Assembly: GCA_013334825.1 (NCBI GenBank)
Contig: JAAXWR010000002.1
Span: forward strand, 155,009 to 219,008
Direction: 5' to 3'
DNA from: Candidatus Yonathbacteria bacterium
Lineage (GTDB): Bacteria; Patescibacteriota; Minisyncoccia; Phycocordibacterales; JACNGX01
DNA length: 64,000 nucleotides
In this document: positions 45,621 through 56,452 of the stretch, one piece after another
How the letters are laid out: every line of letters begins with the position of its first letter
Position numbering within the stretch: position 1 is the first letter of the stretch
Notes under the pieces: model-generated
What the model was told of the DNA's origin: nothing
Databases searched by the model: none
Seen by the model: the letters and a program-made list of their open reading frames with translations, nothing else
Made by a program: the position numbers and the translations under genes

Positions 45621-46814
45621 TTATTTCAACTTTGACCGACGGAGAAATGCGGGGACAGATGACCAATCATCATCTTCTTCGATTTCAGTAGATTCTTGTT
45701 TAGCATTACCAACACTACCAATAGGACGATGGATTTCGCTAATGACGTCGCTGCGCTTATTTTCACGATCTGATTCACGAGGTGCAGGTTCGCGTGTCTC
45801 GTGCTCTTCAGTATGTTCCGCAAAAAGTGTTTGTGCGGGGCGACGACTATTTTGTGTGTGCCCAGGAAAACCAGAAGCAATAACAGTGATTTTGAGTTCG
45901 CCTTTTTTGAGTGAATCGTCTTTGATTGTACCGAAGATAACTTTTGCCTCTGGGTCGGCGGATTCGGTAATAACACGGGCGGCTTCCTGAATTTCGTGCA
46001 TGGTAATATCATCACTTCCAGCAATAGCAAAGAGAACCCCGCGCGCACCATCAATGGAGAGTTCAAGAAGAGGGGAATTGATGGCTGCCTGTGCAGCTTT
46101 TTCTGCACGCTTGTCGCCAGTTGCGATGCCGATGCCCATAAGTGCTGAACCTGCGTCTTCCATGACAGCGCGGATATCCGCGAAGTCTACGTTGATAATA
46201 CCTGGAGTAGTGATGAGATCGGAAATACCTTCAACGGCTTGGCGAAGAATGTCGTCGCACATGGCGAATGCATCCTTTGCACTGGTGTTTTTGTCTACTG
46301 TTTCGAGAATACGATCGTTGGGAACCAGGATCATAGTATCCACAGCGAGGCTTAGATTTGCGAGTGCTTGTTCAGCAATACGTGTGCGTTGTGTTCCTTC
46401 AAATGAAAATGGTTTTGTGACGACTGCGACTGTAAGTGCGCCAGATTCTTTTGCTGCTCGAGCAACAACTTCGGACGCCGAACTGCCTGTTCCTCCACCT
46501 AAACCAGATGCAATAAAAACCATGTCAGAGTTTTGAACTGCATCCATGATTTCCTCTTTGCTTTCTTCTGCGGCACGCTTACCAACGTCTGGATTCATTC
46601 CTGAGCCAAGACCACGGGTAAGATTGCGACCAAGATGAATTTTCTTTTTGGGAAGTGCTTGGTGAAGATGTTGAGCGTCAGTGTTCATGACAATAAACTC
46701 AACGTCTTTTACTTCGCTTCGCATCATGTGGTTGACTGCATTTGTGCCCGCGCCGCCGACGCCGACGACTTTGATACGCGCAAATGTTTCGATATCAGGG
46801 GTGACTTTAGGCAT
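45621..46814 (-). CDS. ftsZ: Cell division GTPase FtsZ.
   Basis: Tubulin signature GGGTGSG (GLGGGTGSSASEV), N-terminal KVVGVGGAGTNAVNHM, and a C-terminal acidic tail. Confidence 0.95.
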   Translation of the reverse strand: MPKVTPDIETFARIKVVGVGGAGTNAVNHMMRSEVKDVEFIVMNTDAQHLHQALPKKKIHLGRNLTRGLGSGMNPDVGKRAAEESKEEIMDAVQNSDMVFIASGLGGGTGSSASEVVARAAKESGALTVAVVTKPFSFEGTQRTRIAEQALANLSLAVDTMILVPNDRILETVDKNTSAKDAFAMCDDILRQAVEGISDLITTPGIINVDFADIRAVMEDAGSALMGIGIATGDKRAEKAAQAAINSPLLELSIDGARGVLFAIAGSDDITMHEIQEAARVITESADPEAKVIFGTIKDDSLKKGELKITVIASGFPGHTQNSRRPAQTLFAEHTEEHETREPAPRESDRENKRSDVISEIHRPIGSVGNAKQESTEIEEDDDWSSVPAFLRRSKLK

Positions 46815-47114: not shown

Positions 47115-48287
47115 TTAAGGGAGAAACTGTTTAAACCATTCTCCTACGCTTCCTGCGCCACGTTTGCTTTTATTGACAAGTTTGATGCCTGCTGATTCTT
47201 CGGTGTTGTCCACACCCATAATACAGAGTCCATACGCAACCGACCAACTTGTATCGGTTGTTTTGTATTTTGTATTTTTCATGGAGTCCATATATGCAAC
47301 TTTGGAAGGAAGTTTGAGTGTGTTTTTGGCAAAGTCTTCGATGCCGGTGAGTGCAGCAGACCCTCCCGTAATGACGATGCCTGCGGGAAGGAGATTATTT
47401 TTACCGAGTTTTTTGAGGTGTGCTTCGATAATATCAAAAATGTCTGAAAGGCGAGCGTTGATGATTTCATTGACTTTCTTTTTAGGATACACATTCAAGT
47501 TCATGCCTTTTTTGATTTTCTCTGCTTCTTCGAGAGGAATCTTGAAACCGAGAGCGATATCATTGGTGATTTCCATTCCGCCAATGGGATAGATTTTGAG
47601 AGAGACGGGCATGCTGTTTTCAAATACAGCAACAGAAAGTGTTTCCGCGCCAATATTGGCGAGCATGCAACCCGCGGTTTTTTGGCGTTTGGTAAGCGTT
47701 ACAAAACTTGCTGCGATAGGTGACGGCATGACATCGTCGACAGCAACACCCGCTTCTTCAACTGCAGCGATAAAGTCATGAAGATGTTGAGAGAGGCACG
47801 TAATAAAGAGCGTATGTGTTTCAACACGCGATCCTTTGAGTCCTGTAGGACGCCCAAGGACTTCTTTTCCATCAAGGATAACAGCAGTTGGAATCACTTG
47901 GATGACTTGGTCGTTTGCGGAGAGTCCTGCAGCATCTTGGGCTGCTTCCATAGCTTTGTCGATATCTCCAGGTGTTACCTCATTGTCTGCGCGCGATACA
48001 AAAACAGAGCCAGTGGAGAGGACGGATTCGACACTGAGTCCACCAACGGCGACAAATGCTTTTTTGACTTCTACATTTGCTGCCTTTTCTGCTTTTTCTA
48101 TTGCTTCGCGAATGCTTTCAGATGCTTCAGGAACAGAAACAATATACCCATGGCGTAATCCACGAGATTCAGCGATACCCATGCCGATAATTTCGGGCTG
48201 GCCACCATGTGCGTCATGTTCAGCGATGACTACACGGACAGATGATGTGCCGATATCAATACCGGTTGAAATGTGTCGTTTTGCCAT
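47115..48287 (-). CDS. ftsA: Cell division protein FtsA.
   Basis: Actin-fold N-terminus ISTGIDIGTSSVRVVIA and ..VITGGSAALTGI.. It lies immediately upstream of ftsZ. Confidence 0.9.
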   Translation of the reverse strand: MAKRHISTGIDIGTSSVRVVIAEHDAHGGQPEIIGMGIAESRGLRHGYIVSVPEASESIREAIEKAEKAANVEVKKAFVAVGGLSVESVLSTGSVFVSRADNEVTPGDIDKAMEAAQDAAGLSANDQVIQVIPTAVILDGKEVLGRPTGLKGSRVETHTLFITCLSQHLHDFIAAVEEAGVAVDDVMPSPIAASFVTLTKRQKTAGCMLANIGAETLSVAVFENSMPVSLKIYPIGGMEITNDIALGFKIPLEEAEKIKKGMNLNVYPKKKVNEIINARLSDIFDIIEAHLKKLGKNNLLPAGIVITGGSAALTGIEDFAKNTLKLPSKVAYMDSMKNTKYKTTDTSWSVAYGLCIMGVDNTEESAGIKLVNKSKRGAGSVGEWFKQFLP

Positions 48288-52401: not shown

Positions 52402-52875
52402 TTAAACAGTTGGCTTGTTTTTTAAATCTTCGGAAATAACTATGTCGGGAAAATACACAAGGTAATCTTGACTCATATCGTGTATGCCTAGGAACTCAAA
52501 CTCGTCTCCGTGGAATAATTCAAAGTTTTTTACACCAAGATATTTATGTTTGAAACTATCATAGTCAGCAACTTTGAAATCGCCACATCCAGTCTGCGGT
52601 CTTTCGGGATCTGGTTTTCTTATCCTAAAAAAATTTAATACCCCATTGTAAAATACGATAGGTTGGTTTAGCTTGTAGATTGGACCATTATGCTCATCTA
52701 TTTGCTGTCCAATATCGTTGCTAGCATTTACTAAATTAGTAAGTTCAGATTCGGAATGTGCAAATATTGTGACATAATCCAGTATTAAATTTTTTTCGGA
52801 AACATAAATATCTTTGACATTAGTAATGCCTTTTGCTATGTCGTGTATTTTATTGATGATTTCTTTGGAATGCAT
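52402..52875 (-). CDS. Hypothetical protein of 157 aa, AT-rich.
   Basis: ORF. No motif. Confidence 0.4.
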   Translation of the reverse strand: MHSKEIINKIHDIAKGITNVKDIYVSEKNLILDYVTIFAHSESELTNLVNASNDIGQQIDEHNGPIYKLNQPIVFYNGVLNFFRIRKPDPERPQTGCGDFKVADYDSFKHKYLGVKNFELFHGDEFEFLGIHDMSQDYLVYFPDIVISEDLKNKPTV

Positions 52876-52917: not shown

Positions 52918-54831
52918 CTATAATACACTCTCAGGATTTATATCAATATCAAATGACGGAGAAAGAGAACGGAGTTGGGACAAGAGTTCACTATCAGGCC
53001 ATGATTTTGCAGGAACCTTAAGAAGAATGTGCGTACGGTGCGCGCTTTTTTTGTTTCCCGCTCCGGCATAAGCATGAGGTTTCCATGGTGACAGAAGTGC
53101 TTGAATGCGTGCGACATGTGTGTCTACCGTTCCACGTGTTCCTTCTACAGTGATGCGGACGAGAACAGAAAACGGCGGATAGCCGAGTTCTTTACGATCG
53201 GCGAGGTCTTCACGATACCGATCGGCAAGATTGCCATCTTTGGCAAATGCGAGCGCTGCGTTTTCTGGATTGCGTGTCTGTATGAGAAGAATTTTCCCTG
53301 CGAGCATACGAAGCGTCGCGAGAATACCCACTGCGCGTTCTTCAGCACGAAAATCAGGAAATGAAAGCAGTGTATCCATAGAGGCAACAGCAACAAGAGG
53401 AATATCAGGTGAAAGCGCTAATAGCCCGATGCCTGTGGTAACAAGTATTGCGCCTGGCGTATGTTCAAACTCCGCGATATGTTTTGCACTTTTTGTTGGT
53501 GTTGTTGCGGTATCACCATCGACGCGGATGATGGTTGCACTCGGAAAGGTATGAGCAATTGCTTCTTCGACATATTGCGTACCAATACCAATAGTGGAGA
53601 GTTTCCAACTATTACAATGTGTGCAACGGTCTTTCGCAGAGATACGTGCTCCACATGTGTGGCACACATGTGCGTTTGCCTCACCATCAGTTTTATGAAG
53701 AACGAGTGGTGCACCACACCGGGAGCATGCGACTATGTGCCCGCAATCATTGCATACCGTCATTCCGTGAAGTCCTTTGCGCGCAGAAAATACAACCGAA
53801 CGCTTGCCTGTGTCGAGTGCGTCTGCAAGCGCGGAGCGAAGTTCGTGAGAGAGCACCGCATCATAGGGACCTTTTTTCTTGGGGATGTCTTCAGTTTTCT
53901 TTTTGCCCATGGGAACAATAACGACGTTTGCCGTTGTGGTAACACGTGTGCGTACTGTTCCCACCGCGTATGCCGAGCCTGATTCGACGCCCGCGAGTGT
54001 TTCTACACGGAGAGGGAGTCCTCCATATACGATGCGCGCACCAAGATGTGTTGCATATGCTTTGACGAAAACACGTATATCCATGTGTGGACGTACTGTC
54101 TCTTTGTATGCATGAGAGCGTTCTCCTTCGACAATGATAGTACCAATGTCCGCACGGGGAAGTGAGAGAAATGCACCTGTGCCAATGATAAGGAGTGCAT
54201 GTGATGAAGATGTTGCTTGTTTCCATGCTTCAGCACGTTTATTTGGAGAAAGTCCTCCGTGAAGAACGACAACGCGGTCTTCAACACCTTTACCAAGGGA
54301 TTCTGTAAGTCGAGGAATAAAATCTGTTTCTGGAACAAGAAGAAAGATGGAGCGATTTTGTGCAAATGATTCGCGAATCATGCGACGATAGGTGGCAAAG
54401 CGTTCATCACGTTCTGCTTGGAGAAGCCCTGAATCTACTGTAATTCCATGTGGTTTTGATTGTTGTGGAAAGTAAGGGTTGTCGGAAGACGTTGAAGATG
54501 TTTCGGAAAAAGAGAGTGTTGTGAAGCGTGCGAGTATCGCTCCTGTTGTCGTTGCGTGGAAATCGGCAGTTTCTCTTGCCGCGACGACAAATGCTGGAGT
54601 GAATGCAGAAGGGGAAATGATTGTATCTACTTTGCGCATGGTGTGTCCTGCGGAGCGTATTTTTGTTTTTGCAGTAAGGGCATCTTCGACATCGACGACG
54701 AGAGCAGGAACGATATGTTTGCGGAGTGGAACAGAAACAAGCGCTCCCGGAGAAACAGAGAGTGATGTGAAATAGGTCAAGGTTTCCTTGCCAATACCGC
54801 GTGATATGGGAATAACGTGGAGGAGAAACAT
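52918..54831 (-). CDS. priA: Primosomal protein N' (PriA homolog) with degenerate helicase motifs.
   Basis: PriA N-terminal 3'-DNA-binding domain. The Cys-rich zinc-binding region is CNDCGHIVACSRCGAPL..CHTCG..CTHCNS. No GxGKT Walker A is present, and the DEEH box is replaced by VEGER. Confidence 0.8.
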   Translation of the reverse strand: MFLLHVIPISRGIGKETLTYFTSLSVSPGALVSVPLRKHIVPALVVDVEDALTAKTKIRSAGHTMRKVDTIISPSAFTPAFVVAARETADFHATTTGAILARFTTLSFSETSSTSSDNPYFPQQSKPHGITVDSGLLQAERDERFATYRRMIRESFAQNRSIFLLVPETDFIPRLTESLGKGVEDRVVVLHGGLSPNKRAEAWKQATSSSHALLIIGTGAFLSLPRADIGTIIVEGERSHAYKETVRPHMDIRVFVKAYATHLGARIVYGGLPLRVETLAGVESGSAYAVGTVRTRVTTTANVVIVPMGKKKTEDIPKKKGPYDAVLSHELRSALADALDTGKRSVVFSARKGLHGMTVCNDCGHIVACSRCGAPLVLHKTDGEANAHVCHTCGARISAKDRCTHCNSWKLSTIGIGTQYVEEAIAHTFPSATIIRVDGDTATTPTKSAKHIAEFEHTPGAILVTTGIGLLALSPDIPLVAVASMDTLLSFPDFRAEERAVGILATLRMLAGKILLIQTRNPENAALAFAKDGNLADRYREDLADRKELGYPPFSVLVRITVEGTRGTVDTHVARIQALLSPWKPHAYAGAGNKKSAHRTHILLKVPAKSWPDSELLSQLRSLSPSFDIDINPESVL

Positions 54832-54921: not shown

Positions 54922-55323
54922 TCAGATACCAAGATATGCCTTTGCAATATCCGCGACATCTTCATCATTAAGATGTTCACGGAGTATTGCCCTTGCTTCC
55001 TCGACAATATGTTTGTCGAGAACATGTGCGCGTTTTGCAAACGCACATGCTGCGCGGAAACGCGGATAGGAATTGTCAATCTGCTCATGTATCATGACGA
55101 GCAGTTTTTCAATATCGCTCTTCTCAAGAACGATAGTTGATGTTTCAAAAATGCACGCCGAGAGATCTTTGAGATTTGCGTTGGGATTTTTCGTGTTTTC
55201 TTTTGCCCACGCAATAACATCGATATCATTGGCATGCGCGGGGAGAATGGCATCAACGCATTCCCAAAAATCCTGTTTGCTCAGGGTGATGAGCTGTTCG
55301 AGAATAGAGGAAGAGCTGTTCAT
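54922..55323 (-). CDS. Hypothetical protein of 133 aa.
   Basis: ORF. A bidirectional terminator AAAAGCGCGGTATGCCGCGCTTTT lies at about 54888-54915. Confidence 0.4.
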   Translation of the reverse strand: MNSSSSILEQLITLSKQDFWECVDAILPAHANDIDVIAWAKENTKNPNANLKDLSACIFETSTIVLEKSDIEKLLVMIHEQIDNSYPRFRAACAFAKRAHVLDKHIVEEARAILREHLNDEDVADIAKAYLGI

Positions 55324-55438: not shown

Positions 55439-56452
55439 ATGAGTATGTTTTCACCCAAATTGGGTATCGATTTAGGAACAGCAAATACTCTTGTCTTTAA
55501 GCCTGGCAAGGGTATTGTGCTGAACGAGCCTTCGGTTGTTGCGGTATCCGAAATTGACAATACGGTGCTTGCGGTGGGGCTTGAAGCAAAGGAAATGGTA
55601 GGTCGCACACCAGACGCGATTCGTGCATATCGCCCCATGCGTGATGGTGTGATTGCTGATTACCGAGTGACAGAAGCGATGCTCCGGTATTATATTGGTA
55701 AGGCATTGGGAAAGTGGAATCTTTGGAAACCAGAAGTGATGGTGTCGGTTCCCGCGGGAGTAACATCCACAGAACGTCGCGCGGTGGTGGAAGCGGCAAT
55801 AAAAGCGGGTGCCAAAAACGCATACGTAGTCAAAGAGCCGATTCTCGCGGCGATTGGCGCAGGTATTCCTATTCACGAAGCGCGCGGACATATGGTCGTG
55901 GATATTGGTGGTGGTACGACGGACGTCGCGGTTATTTCGCTCGGTGGTATTGTTGCTTCTACATCAGTTAAGTGCGCGGGTGATCGCATTGATCATGCCA
56001 TCGCGGACTATATTAAAAAGACGTTTAATCTTGCTATTGGAGATAAGACGGCAGAGAATATCAAAATCAAAATTGGTTCGGCGATTCCTTTGGAAGAAGA
56101 ACTGATAATGACTATTAAAGGACGTGACTTTGTGTCGGGACTGCCACGCACGACAGAAATCGGTACGAATGAAATCGTTAAGGCAATTGACAATGAACTC
56201 AGGGATATTATCAAAGCAATCAAGGCGGTATTACAAGAAACACCTCCAGAACTTTCTGCTGATATTATTGATCAAGGTATTATTATGACAGGCGGGTCAT
56301 CCCAACTTGCCAATCTTCCTGAACTTATCTATCGTCGTACGGGTGTGGAAGCGCGCCTTGCCAAAGATGCTTTGTATTGTGTTGCAAAGGGGACGGGCAT
56401 CGCACTTGAGCACTTGGATACATACAAAAAGAGTATTATTGCGAAGAGATAA
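55439..56452 (+). CDS. mreB: Actin homolog MreB, paralog 1. No mreCD is adjacent.
   Basis: LGIDLGTANTLVF.. and DIGGGTTDVAVISLGGIV are MreB signatures. Confidence 0.9.
   Translation: MSMFSPKLGIDLGTANTLVFKPGKGIVLNEPSVVAVSEIDNTVLAVGLEAKEMVGRTPDAIRAYRPMRDGVIADYRVTEAMLRYYIGKALGKWNLWKPEVMVSVPAGVTSTERRAVVEAAIKAGAKNAYVVKEPILAAIGAGIPIHEARGHMVVDIGGGTTDVAVISLGGIVASTSVKCAGDRIDHAIADYIKKTFNLAIGDKTAENIKIKIGSAIPLEEELIMTIKGRDFVSGLPRTTEIGTNEIVKAIDNELRDIIKAIKAVLQETPPELSADIIDQGIIMTGGSSQLANLPELIYRRTGVEARLAKDALYCVAKGTGIALEHLDTYKKSIIAKR

What the first reader, a model, noticed from the sequence alone, without database searches (positions are those of the whole stretch)
52918..54831. PriA homolog lacking canonical Walker A and DEEH helicase motifs
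The protein has the PriA N-terminal 3'-DNA-binding domain and the Cys-rich zinc-binding insertion. Where GxGKT is expected (before LLVPE) it reads ..ATYRRMIRESFAQNRSIFLLVPE. In place of the DEEH box it reads IIVEGERSH. This predicts a PriA that cannot hydrolyse ATP. Helicase-dead PriA variants have been reported in a few lineages, and such a variant would imply an unusual replication-restart mechanism here.
Basis: partly seen in the sequence, partly recalled or inferred. Interest (0 to 1): 0.5.

Follow-up and report, generated by a model that had tools for sequence, protein, structure and literature searches.

The report
ATPase-dead PriA conserved across Parcubacteria
This gene is the cell's genuine replication-restart protein PriA, but every residue needed to burn ATP has been replaced; the same dead-motor version is conserved under purifying selection across hundreds of ultra-small "CPR" bacterial species, so it is a new natural example of a known oddity rather than a new kind of system.

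Summary
ORF 52918-54831 (-) encodes a 637-aa PriA with a 3'-DNA-binding domain, two RecA-like lobes, a Cys-rich region with eight cysteines and a C-terminal domain. The AF2 model has pLDDT 90.6 and TM 0.80 to E. coli PriA. It has no winged-helix domain.

All ATPase/helicase motifs are gone. GxGKT reads QAERDERF, DEEH reads EGER, SAT reads GLP, and GRAGR is deleted. No shifted P-loop exists.

The loss is clade-wide. It holds in about 90 metagenomic homologs and in all 80 inspected loci out of 345 matching GTDB species genomes (Parcubacteria/Paceibacteria).

The gene is not decaying. dN/dS is 0.14 overall and 0.05 in the former motif segments. An invariant Arg sits in the Walker-A lysine column. 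Across the clade the gene keeps the ancestral priA-def-fmt position.

The best reading is a pseudohelicase that still recognises abandoned forks and nucleates helicase reloading without unwinding DNA. The published Deinococcus-Thermus PriA and engineered E. coli K230 variants work this way.

Nitrospirota PriAs show a probably independent loss. ATPase activity, partner proteins and the absence of a second priA elsewhere in the genome remain untested.

The parts
52918..54831 (-). priA ortholog, 637 aa, pseudohelicase (whole CDS including TAG stop)
   Evidence: ORF. TIGR00595 243 bits. PDB PriA E=6e-41. AF2 pLDDT 90.6 / pTM 0.90. Foldseek TM 0.80 to 8fak_H. dN/dS 0.137 against the 96%-identical ortholog L085.
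54517..54831 (-). 3'-DNA-binding domain (res 1-105)
   Evidence: PF17764 hit at res 15-96, E=0.004, and precomputed for most homologs. Beta-rich fold with pLDDT about 90. Y20 and G29 are shared with canonical PriA.
54436..54516 (-). Ser/Thr-rich disordered linker (res 106-132). It replaces the winged-helix domain and the W186/R187/Y190 regulatory linker motif of E. coli PriA.
   Evidence: pLDDT 56-71 with no secondary structure. Highest entropy in the protein, 3.37 bits. The clade profile aligns in one stretch to the WH-deletion E. coli construct 6dcr. Linker motif described in PMC8323898.
53932..54435 (-). RecA-like lobe 1 (HD1, res 133-300), catalytically degenerate
   Evidence: AF2 and Foldseek. 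Motif table. dN/dS 0.13.
54388..54429 (-). Former Walker A / P-loop: GLLQAERDERFATY (res 135-148). Q138 sits in the first Gly column and invariant R144 sits in the Lys column.
   Evidence: MAFFT and HMMER profile alignment, R aligned to K of GKT in 4nl4. Q138, R144 and Y148 invariant in 80/80 GTDB loci. Loop of 2 residues against 5 in the canonical control. Net charge -1.8 and no Gly in 155/170.
54310..54342 (-). Former motif Ia: LLVPETDFIPR (res 164-174). PE is kept in this sub-clade, it is PT in most of the clade, and the conserved TxQ is lost.
54154..54189 (-). Former motif Ib: IIGTGAFLSLPR (res 215-226). The canonical GxRS Arg/Ser are lost, and a clade-specific T218, F221-L222-S223 and R226 are conserved.
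   Evidence: Entropy 1.17 bits.
54073..54138 (-). Former Walker B/DEEH plus remodelled aromatic-rich loop: IIVEGERSHAYKETVRPHMDIR (res 232-253). Of DEEH only E237 is kept. Y242, K243, P248 and R253 are kept. The canonical R-Y core is replaced, and new R247 and D251 are conserved.
   Evidence: ARL position from PMC5175346. Entropy 1.39 bits.
53998..54030 (-). Former motif III: VYGGLPLRVET (res 268-278). GSATP becomes G(D/G)xxL.
53173..53931 (-). RecA-like lobe 2 (HD2, res 301-553), including the CRR insert
   Evidence: AF2 and Foldseek. The RRG (motif IV region), GT, D486, P492, E498, QT and R546-YPPF are shared with canonical PriA.
53596..53763 (-). Cys-rich region (res 357-412) with 8 Cys, forming two Zn sites
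   Evidence: C360, 363, 369, 372, 390, 393, 403 and 406 are conserved. PF18319 hit at res 369-396.
53416..53448 (-). Former motif V: ILVTTGIGLLA (res 462-472). T466 is kept. The canonical Q and KG are lost.
   Evidence: Entropy 1.05 bits.
53272..53325 (-). Former motif VI: ILATLRMLAGKILLIQTR (res 503-520). The GRAGR arginine fingers are absent with a 5-residue deletion, and a clade-conserved R520 follows QT.
   Evidence: Helix 496-510 runs directly into strand 511-519, whereas the control has a loop.
52921..53172 (-). C-terminal domain (res 554-637)
   Evidence: AF2 pLDDT above 90. Within the Foldseek alignment to PriA. dN/dS 0.06. W611, L623 and P633 conserved.

Best explanation
This is the organism's orthologous PriA, fixed long ago in the Parcubacteria/Paceibacteria radiation as a pseudohelicase. 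It keeps the PriA architecture minus the winged helix: 3'BD, two RecA-like lobes, a two-zinc CRR and a CTD. It cannot bind or hydrolyse ATP.

Proposed working (inferred): the 3'BD captures the 3' end of the nascent leading strand. The RecA lobes, the remodelled post-motif-II loop, the CRR and the CTD act as a static surface or pore that binds single-stranded lagging-strand template. The bound protein then serves as a landing pad that recruits the replicative helicase DnaB, directly or via its loader or SSB. With no motor, it can act only on forks and D-loops whose lagging arm is already single-stranded.

Shown: identity, fold, loss of every catalytic motif, clade-wide conservation, purifying selection, orthologous genomic position.

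For: Identity and fold:
- TIGR00595 scores 243 bits.
- PDB PriA E=6e-41.
- AF2 pLDDT 90.6.
- Foldseek TM 0.80 to fork-bound E. coli PriA.

Motif loss:
- All columns that are at least 90% conserved in canonical motifs I, Ia, Ib, II, III, V and VI are replaced.
- No GxGK[ST] or DE[EA]H is found in the query or in 80/80 GTDB orthologs.
- The P-loop is collapsed to 2 residues, against 5 in canonical control P0099.
- The octet is acidic and glycine-free.
- The motif VI loop is deleted.
- A K-to-R change alone abolishes ATPase in E. coli PriA (PMC4504706).

The gene is functional, not decaying:
- dN/dS is 0.137 overall and 0.053 in former motif segments.
- Former motif segments are more conserved than the protein average.
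- 54 positions are at least 95% conserved, including R144, E237, R520 and 7 of the 8 Cys.
- Full-length ORFs occur in about 90 metagenomic homologs, and 345 GTDB species genomes encode a relative.

Orthology: priA-def-fmt order holds in 47/80 and 43/80 loci, and mreB adjacency in 62/80.

A scaffold role is plausible:
- D. radiodurans PriA lacks ATPase and helicase activity yet binds ssDNA, forks and DnaB (PMC4504706).
- E. coli K230A PriA supports DnaB loading, and the ATPase is dispensable for PriA-PriB restart in vivo (PMC10175261).
- A duplex lagging arm must be unwound before preprimosome assembly (PMC13594977).
Against: - No biochemistry exists for this protein or any close relative.
- Nucleotide binding cannot be excluded from sequence alone, since R144 and E237 survive.
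- The 64-kb window contains no dnaB, loader, ssb, priB or dnaT, so no partner is identified.
- I could not scan any whole genome of the clade for a second, canonical priA.
- The DNA-contact and SSB-contact residues of E. coli PriA were not mapped one by one.
- The canonical R-Y core of the aromatic-rich loop is not conserved, so fork-junction binding may differ.
- The winged-helix domain that contacts parental duplex in E. coli is absent.
Confidence: 0.78

Rival explanations
1. The protein still binds (and perhaps slowly hydrolyses) a nucleotide through a non-canonical site built from R144, E237, D271 and E467. It would then act as a nucleotide-gated switch rather than a dead scaffold.
For: R144 is invariant in the Walker-A Lys column and E237 is about 98% conserved in the Walker-B column. 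The former active-site segments are under the strongest constraint in the protein.
Against: All three P-loop glycines are gone. The loop is 2 residues instead of 5. The octet carries net charge -1.8, which would repel phosphates. The Ser/Thr Mg ligand, the Walker-B Asp-Glu pair, motif III and both motif VI arginine fingers are lost. K230R alone kills the E. coli PriA ATPase (PMC4504706).
Confidence: 0.06
2. This is a neofunctionalised PriA paralog. A canonical, motif-intact PriA encoded elsewhere in the genome does replication restart, and this copy has another DNA-binding role.
For: Only 64 kb of the genome is visible, and no whole genome of the clade could be scanned with the tools available.
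Against: In most of the clade the gene sits in the ancestral priA-def-fmt position. That this order is the ancestral one, as in Bacillus, rests on my own knowledge. All 120 listed hits with at least 28% identity and full coverage are degenerate. The canonical hits begin at about 65% coverage, and where context was examined they are non-CPR (P0099 lies next to an RND pump; P0109 is from Aggregatilineales). CPR genomes are small and rarely keep paralogs (general knowledge).
Confidence: 0.08
3. This is a decaying relic or pseudogene with no function, and the motif loss is neutral erosion.
For: All catalytic motifs are lost. The protein is strongly diverged from canonical PriA (mean distance 2.35, against 1.15 among canonical PriAs). 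Many orthologs fall below the NCBI PriA HMM cutoff and are named 'hypothetical'.
Against: dN/dS is 0.14, and 0.05 in former motif segments. Intact ORFs of about 630 aa occur in hundreds of species. The fold is predicted with high confidence. The replacement residues are themselves conserved.
Confidence: 0.01

Closest known systems
Deinococcus radiodurans / Deinococcus-Thermus PriA pseudohelicase (Lopper, Boone & Morrow 2015, PMC4504706)
   Same: Both are bona fide PriA orthologs with poor matches to motifs I and II. In both, the Walker-A Lys column holds Arg. The D. radiodurans protein has experimentally been shown to lack ATPase and helicase activity while still binding ssDNA, forks and DnaB, which is the model for how the window protein probably works.
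   Different: The phylum is different (Patescibacteria, class Paceibacteria). The erosion here is far deeper: the P-loop glycines and Ser/Thr, motifs Ia, Ib, III and V, and the whole motif VI loop are gone. There is no winged-helix domain. A clade-specific replacement signature is conserved (LQ-x4-[DE]R-x3-Y[KR]; E-x-E-x-S; G-D-x-x-L; QTR). No Deinococcus sequence could be retrieved, so common or independent origin was not tested directly. There is no biochemistry for this protein.
E. coli PriA K230R / K230A (priA300-type engineered ATPase-dead variants)
   Same: [quoted passage not shown] It is the functional analogue of what is proposed here.
   Different: It is a laboratory point mutant in an otherwise intact helicase that works with PriB, DnaT and DnaC. 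The window protein is a natural, multi-motif loss in a lineage where none of those partners has been identified.
Canonical PriA (E. coli / K. pneumoniae; PDB 4nl4, 6dgd, 8fak)
   Same: Same domain order and fold: 3'BD, HD1, HD2 with a two-zinc CRR, and CTD. TM is 0.80 to 8fak. Shared residues include Y20, G29, P167, E237, Y242, P248, R253, R351/G353, 8 Cys, T466, Q518-T519 and R546-YPPF.
   Different: About 20% identity. No WH domain. No ATPase motifs. No W186 linker motif. The model is closer to the fork-bound state than to the apo state (0.80 against 0.64-0.67). A canonical control model fits both states equally well (0.79-0.81).
E. coli PriA winged-helix deletion construct (PDB 6dcr)
   Same: The same WH-less architecture. 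The clade profile aligns to it contiguously from the 3'BD to HD2.
   Different: 6dcr is an engineered, ATPase-competent protein.
Nitrospirota PriA
   Same: About 635 aa, WH-less, with 3'BD, CRR and CTD kept. 119/120 lack GxGK[ST] and 0/120 have DE[EA]H. GRAGR is lost. E237-equivalent, S..YK and QTR are kept.
   Different: The replacement residues differ (HAPSxxYEYS; VLxEHS; SSxTPS partly kept). The family is closer to canonical PriA (distance 1.72) than to the CPR clade (2.36), so the loss is most likely independent. It occurs in free-living, non-reduced genomes.

Membership tests
PriA (primosomal protein N' / TIGR00595, PRK05580) | Whole-protein match to the curated PriA HMM above its cutoff | tested here: met
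   TIGR00595 scores 243.1 bits against a cutoff of 230.35, a marginal pass. Canonical relatives score 543-613 bits. Some clade members fall below the cutoff (P0095 161, P0091 138).
PriA (primosomal protein N' / TIGR00595, PRK05580) | N-terminal 3'-DNA-binding domain | tested here: met
   PF17764 hit at res 15-96, E=0.004 and sub-threshold. PF17764 is precomputed in most homologs. The domain is confidently modelled.
PriA (primosomal protein N' / TIGR00595, PRK05580) | Two RecA-like lobes with a Cys-rich two-zinc insertion in lobe 2, followed by a CTD | tested here: met
   Foldseek TM 0.80 to 8fak_H across 669 columns. 8 Cys conserved.
PriA (primosomal protein N' / TIGR00595, PRK05580) | Winged-helix domain between the 3'BD and the helicase core | tested here: not met
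   Only a 27-residue disordered linker (res 106-132) is present. WH-less canonical PriAs also exist (P0099, 652 aa), so this feature is not universal.
PriA (primosomal protein N' / TIGR00595, PRK05580) | Orthologous genomic position (priA-def-fmt) | tested here: met
   def is at +1 in 47/80 loci and fmt at +2 in 43/80 loci of the clade. This is not so in the window itself, where a 157-aa ORF and a HAD hydrolase follow. That this order is ancestral rests on my own knowledge of Bacillus-type operons.
Active SF2 DNA helicase/ATPase | Walker A P-loop GxxGxGK[ST] | tested here: not met
   The equivalent reads QAERDERF. There is no GK[ST] anywhere in the protein. The loop is 2 residues.
Active SF2 DNA helicase/ATPase | Walker B DExH | tested here: not met
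   The equivalent reads EGER. Only the second Glu is kept.
Active SF2 DNA helicase/ATPase | Motif III (SAT) and motif VI arginine fingers (GRAGR) | tested here: not met
   GSATP is replaced by GGLPL. GRAGR is absent, with a 5-residue deletion.
Active SF2 DNA helicase/ATPase | DNA-dependent ATP hydrolysis and 3'-5' unwinding | not testable with these tools
   Requires purified protein.
PriA pseudohelicase (sensu Lopper et al. 2015) | PriA ortholog with degenerate motifs I and II, and Arg in place of the Walker-A Lys | tested here: met
   R144 aligns to the Walker-A Lys by both MAFFT and HMMER and is invariant in the clade. Definition from PMC4504706.
PriA pseudohelicase (sensu Lopper et al. 2015) | No ATPase or helicase activity, but retained ssDNA/fork binding and DnaB interaction | not testable with these tools
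   Biochemical criteria (PMC4504706).
PriA pseudohelicase (sensu Lopper et al. 2015) | Shared descent with the Deinococcus-Thermus clade | not tested
Phylum distance and different erosion patterns suggest independent origin (inference).

The most novel reading that the evidence does not exclude
The dead active site has been rebuilt, not merely lost. The invariant Arg144, the acidic pseudo-P-loop, E237, D271, E467 and R520 would form an intramolecular salt-bridge network that occupies the former nucleotide cleft. This would lock the two RecA lobes and the CRR in the 'fork-bound / CRR-up' pore-forming state, which E. coli PriA reaches only after DNA binding or unwinding.

Such a PriA would be a constitutively 'switched-on' loader platform. 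Together with the Deinococcota and Nitrospirota cases, it would show that the PriA motor has been discarded repeatedly and is accessory to restart.

Supporting hints: the AF2 model fits 8fak (TM 0.80) much better than apo structures (0.64-0.67), whereas a canonical control fits both equally. The former motif segments are also the most constrained parts of the protein.
Probability: 0.2. Interest if true: 0.6.

Novelty: new member of a known kind. Interest (0 to 1): 0.4.

Why it matters
PriA is the main entry point for replication restart in bacteria, and what its helicase motor is actually for remains a standing question. A whole class of bacteria has run on a motor-less PriA for a very long time: at least 345 species-level genomes. 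Nitrospirota shows a probably independent loss, and Deinococcus-Thermus is the published case. Together these are natural experiments suggesting that fork recognition and helicase recruitment are the indispensable functions and that unwinding is accessory.

This gives restart biochemists a minimal, WH-less, ATP-independent PriA to study structurally. It also raises the question of which partner (DnaB, DciA-type loader, SSB) it hands off to in genomes where no PriB, DnaT or DnaC homolog has been identified (their absence was not tested here).

There is a practical annotation issue too. Many of these proteins fall below the NCBI PriA HMM cutoff and are labelled 'hypothetical', or are named 'helicase' although they almost certainly are not.

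Tried and rejected
1. A shifted or cryptic P-loop. A regex scan of the whole protein found none. The only 'GIGK' is in the 3'BD hairpin (res 12-15), followed by Glu.

2. Pseudogene. Rejected by dN/dS and conservation.

3. Hypothesis that P0106/P0119, the other degenerate hits, were the Deinococcus-Thermus type or the actinobacterial PRK14873 type. Both were wrong. NCBIfam places them in PRK05580 and their named relatives are Nitrospirota.

4. A distance tree to test whether the CPR and Nitrospirota dead lineages are sisters. The 98% 'CPR+NIT' bipartition is uninformative, because with three clans in an unrooted tree it only restates that canonical PriAs form a clan. Only the between-group distances were used.

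5. A genome-contig scan with the full 89-sequence clade alignment failed because no conserved stretch was found. A 16-sequence subset worked.

6. The listing of cluster members returned no organism names.

7. The 'Candidatus Saccharibacteria' record titles on about 32 loci suggested spread to TM7. They are interspersed with Parcubacteria-labelled sequences at equal identity, so the label is generic.

8. The two small ORFs flanking priA in the window (157 aa and 133 aa) have no Pfam hits and are absent from the 80 loci, so they are not conserved partners.

9. Literature searches pairing PriA with Patescibacteria, Parcubacteria or Nitrospirota found nothing relevant.

10. I could not obtain model coordinates, so the proposed salt-bridge network was not checked.
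Full report
OBSERVATION

It is a PriA.
- NCBIfam TIGR00595 'replication restart helicase PriA' scores 243 bits, just above its 230-bit cutoff.
- phmmer finds the K. pneumoniae and E. coli PriA crystal and cryo-EM chains at E=6e-41 to 3e-37.
- Pfam gives only sub-threshold hits to the PriA 3'BD and PriA zinc ribbon, and no DEAD, ResIII or Helicase_C hit.

MOTIFS

I aligned the protein with 120 homologs and read the helicase-motif columns directly.

| Motif | Canonical (21 PriAs) | Window protein |
|---|---|---|
| I (Walker A) | LLHGVTGSGKTEIY | LLQAERDERFATY |
| Ib | GxRS | GTGA |
| II (Walker B) | DEEH | EGER |
| III | GSATP | GGLPL |
| V | GTQ...KG | TTG...LA |
| VI | GRAGR | absent, with a 5-residue deletion |

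- The canonical columns are 90-100% conserved in the 21 canonical PriAs.
The true P-loop equivalent is immediately upstream.
- An independent HMMER profile alignment to 4nl4 places the clade's Arg144 on the Walker-A lysine.
It is not met. There is no G....GK[ST], GK[ST], DE.H or R.GR anywhere. The only 'GIGK' lies in the 3'BD hairpin and is followed by Glu.

STRUCTURE

- An AF2 model built on a 109-sequence alignment is confident (pLDDT 90.6, pTM 0.90).
- It shows a 3'BD (1-105), a disordered Ser/Thr linker (106-132) where E. coli has its winged-helix domain, HD1 (133-300), HD2 (301-553) with the CRR (357-412), and a CTD (554-637).
- All eight CRR cysteines are conserved.
- Foldseek's nine best PDB hits are all PriA chains.
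- In the model, strand 134-138 is followed by a 2-residue turn and a helix that starts at residue 141.
- A control model of a canonical WH-less PriA (P0099, pLDDT 87.7) went through the same pipeline. It has a 5-residue P-loop and a helix that starts at the Walker lysine. It also has a loop at motif VI that the window protein lacks.

A CLADE TRAIT, NOT A ONE-OFF

- Homologs P0001-P0096 share 28-96% identity. About 90 of them are full-length (613-679 aa). All of them show the same losses.
- A scan of GTDB species genomes with two clade-specific peptides found 345 genomes encoding a relative.
- The best 80 are titled Parcubacteria, Paceibacteria, Minisyncoccia, or Yonath-, Taylor-, Campbell- or Zambryskibacteria, or carry only generic labels (Patescibacteria group, 'bacterium', 'Candidatus Saccharibacteria').
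- None of the 80 has GxGK[ST] or DE[EA]H. Q138, R144, Y148 and E237 are invariant in all 80.
- The 'Candidatus Saccharibacteria' titles on many MAGs are generic labels, because those sequences are interspersed with the Parcubacteria-labelled ones.
- The closest named relative (67% identity) is a Ca. Yonathbacteria MAG whose gene order matches the window.

THE GENE IS FUNCTIONAL

- Against a 96%-identical ortholog (L085), dN/dS is 0.137 for the whole gene. In the former motif segments it is 0.053, from 2 nonsynonymous and 13 synonymous differences.
- Across 170 distinct clade members, the former motif segments have lower entropy (1.05-1.90 bits) than the protein average (1.97 bits). The linker is free to vary (3.37 bits).
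- 54 positions are at least 95% conserved.
- The P-loop-equivalent octet has mean net charge -1.8 and no glycine in 155/170 members. This chemistry is incompatible with cradling a triphosphate.
- The post-motif-II aromatic-rich loop wedges into the fork junction and couples DNA binding to ATPase in E. coli (PMC5175346; PMC10175261). Here it is remodelled rather than lost. Y242, K243, P248 and R253 are kept, the canonical R-Y core is replaced, and new R247 and D251 are at least 95% conserved.
- The W186/R187/Y190 linker motif that tunes helicase processivity (PMC8323898) has no counterpart.

ORTHOLOGY AND CONTEXT

- In the clade the gene is followed by def (47/80 loci) and fmt (43/80). It is preceded by murA and a divergent mreB-holB-frr-rseP cluster, with mreB adjacent in 62/80 loci.
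- priA-def-fmt is the classic bacterial arrangement (my own knowledge). This argues that the gene is the orthologous priA and not a spare paralog.
- The window itself is housekeeping chromosome: RNR, aminoacyl-tRNA synthetases, MurJ, LepA, FtsA/FtsZ, two MreB, HolB, RRF and RseP.
- Among the ORFs of at least about 130 aa that were scanned, the window holds no second priA and no dnaB, loader, ssb, priB or dnaT.

HOW IT MOST LIKELY WORKS

The published precedent is Deinococcus-Thermus PriA. Its motifs I and II are degenerate, with the GKT lysine replaced by arginine. The D. radiodurans protein has no ATPase or helicase activity, yet it binds ssDNA and forks with near-E. coli affinity and binds DnaB (PMC4504706).

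In E. coli, K230A/K230R PriA still assembles primosomes and supports DnaB loading. PriA ATPase is not required for PriA-PriB restart in vivo (PMC10175261). Unwinding is needed only when the lagging arm is duplex (PMC13594977).

By inference, the window protein is a motor-less fork-recognition platform. It would recruit the replicative helicase to forks or D-loops whose lagging strand is already single-stranded.

One soft, controlled observation goes further. The model fits fork-bound E. coli PriA (8fak, TM 0.80) clearly better than apo structures (0.64-0.67). The canonical control fits both states equally well (0.79-0.81). This is compatible with a protein fixed in the pore-forming 'on' conformation. 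It rests on AF2 conformations and global TM-scores only.

COMPARISON WITH WHAT IS KNOWN, AND NOVELTY

Literature searches found the Deinococcus paper, the reviews that cite it, and nothing linking PriA motif loss to Patescibacteria, Parcubacteria or Nitrospirota.

The window protein meets the sequence definition of a PriA pseudohelicase. Its erosion is much deeper than described for Deinococcus: all motifs are affected, motif VI is deleted, and there is no WH domain. I could not obtain a Deinococcus sequence, so independent origin from that lineage is inferred and not tested.

While chasing two other degenerate hits, I found that Nitrospirota PriAs (Thermodesulfovibrionales, Nitrospira, Ca. 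Sulfobium) are also motif-dead. 119/120 lack GxGK[ST] and 0/120 have DE[EA]H. Their replacement residues are different, and they lie closer to canonical PriA (distance 1.72) than to the CPR clade (2.36). PriA pseudohelicases therefore appear to have arisen repeatedly.

VERDICT

'Unusual restart mechanism' is overstated, because a helicase-independent PriA function is already established. This is a new and very large natural lineage of a known kind of protein. Interest is moderate (0.4). It would surprise a specialist only mildly. It does offer a minimal natural system, and evidence of recurrence, for asking what the PriA motor is for.

Untested: ATPase and nucleotide binding, DNA and partner binding, and whether a second priA exists elsewhere in these genomes.

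Noticed in passing
L083:8001-9899 (P0119); P0106; P0127-P0244: Nitrospirota PriAs (Thermodesulfovibrionales, Nitrospira, Ca. Sulfobium; about 635 aa, WH-less) also lack the ATPase motifs. Walker A reads HAPSxxYEYS, DEEH reads VLxEHS and GRAGR is lost. 119/120 have no GxGK[ST] and 0/120 have DE[EA]H. Their replacement residues differ from the CPR clade and they lie closer to canonical PriA, so this is probably an independent, apparently undescribed pseudohelicase lineage in free-living bacteria.
   Followed up: partly
P0088, P0090-P0093, P0245-P0258 (537-618 aa): A small subgroup is nearest to the Taylorbacteria/Paceibacterota proteins. In it the whole Walker-A/alpha1 region of HD1 is deleted and motif II reads EEENS. 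This looks like further reduction of the dead lobe.
   Followed up: partly
P0077, P0081: Two clade members keep D-E-E at the Walker B position ('IIIDEESS') while Walker A is already lost. This hints that Walker A decayed first.
   Followed up: no
window 52402-52875 (-) and 54922-55323 (-): ORFs of 157 aa and 133 aa lie on the same strand immediately downstream and upstream of priA. They have no Pfam hit and no homolog in the 80 GTDB loci. An ORF of the same length (133 aa) occupies the same upstream position in the 96%-identical contig L085. They replace the def-fmt genes that follow priA in most of the clade.
   Followed up: partly
window 54784-54798 (res 12-16 of PriA): A 'GIGKE' string in the first hairpin of the 3'BD is conserved in the clade (pattern G[IVA][GM]K[ED][TSQ]LxYF) and absent from canonical PriA. 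It superficially resembles a P-loop but sits in a beta-barrel domain.
   Followed up: no
P0083, P0086, P0260, P0275, P0294, P0302, P0312, P0346: NCBI labels many orthologs 'hypothetical protein'. Clade members score 138-248 bits on TIGR00595 (cutoff 230), so annotation is inconsistent. Others are named 'helicase' although they almost certainly are not.
   Followed up: partly
L062 (JBEBJM010000006.1): A contig titled 'Nitrospira sp.' carries the CPR-type PriA (37% identity to the query). It is probably a mis-binned or mislabelled contig.
   Followed up: no
L002, L003, L005 and about 29 other loci: The record titles 'uncultured Candidatus Saccharibacteria' on TPA_asm MAGs are generic. Their PriAs are interspersed with Parcubacteria-labelled ones at identical mean identity (0.48).
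   Followed up: yes
window 55439-56452 (+) and 62760-63812 (+): Two full-length MreB paralogs lie within 8 kb, and FtsA (47115-48287) and FtsZ (45621-46814) are in the same window. The mreB-holB-frr-rseP cluster divergent from priA is conserved across the clade.
   Followed up: partly
window 60010-62526 (+): An 838-aa ORF has no significant Pfam domain. The only hit is a sub-threshold one to a viral DUF1717.
   Followed up: no
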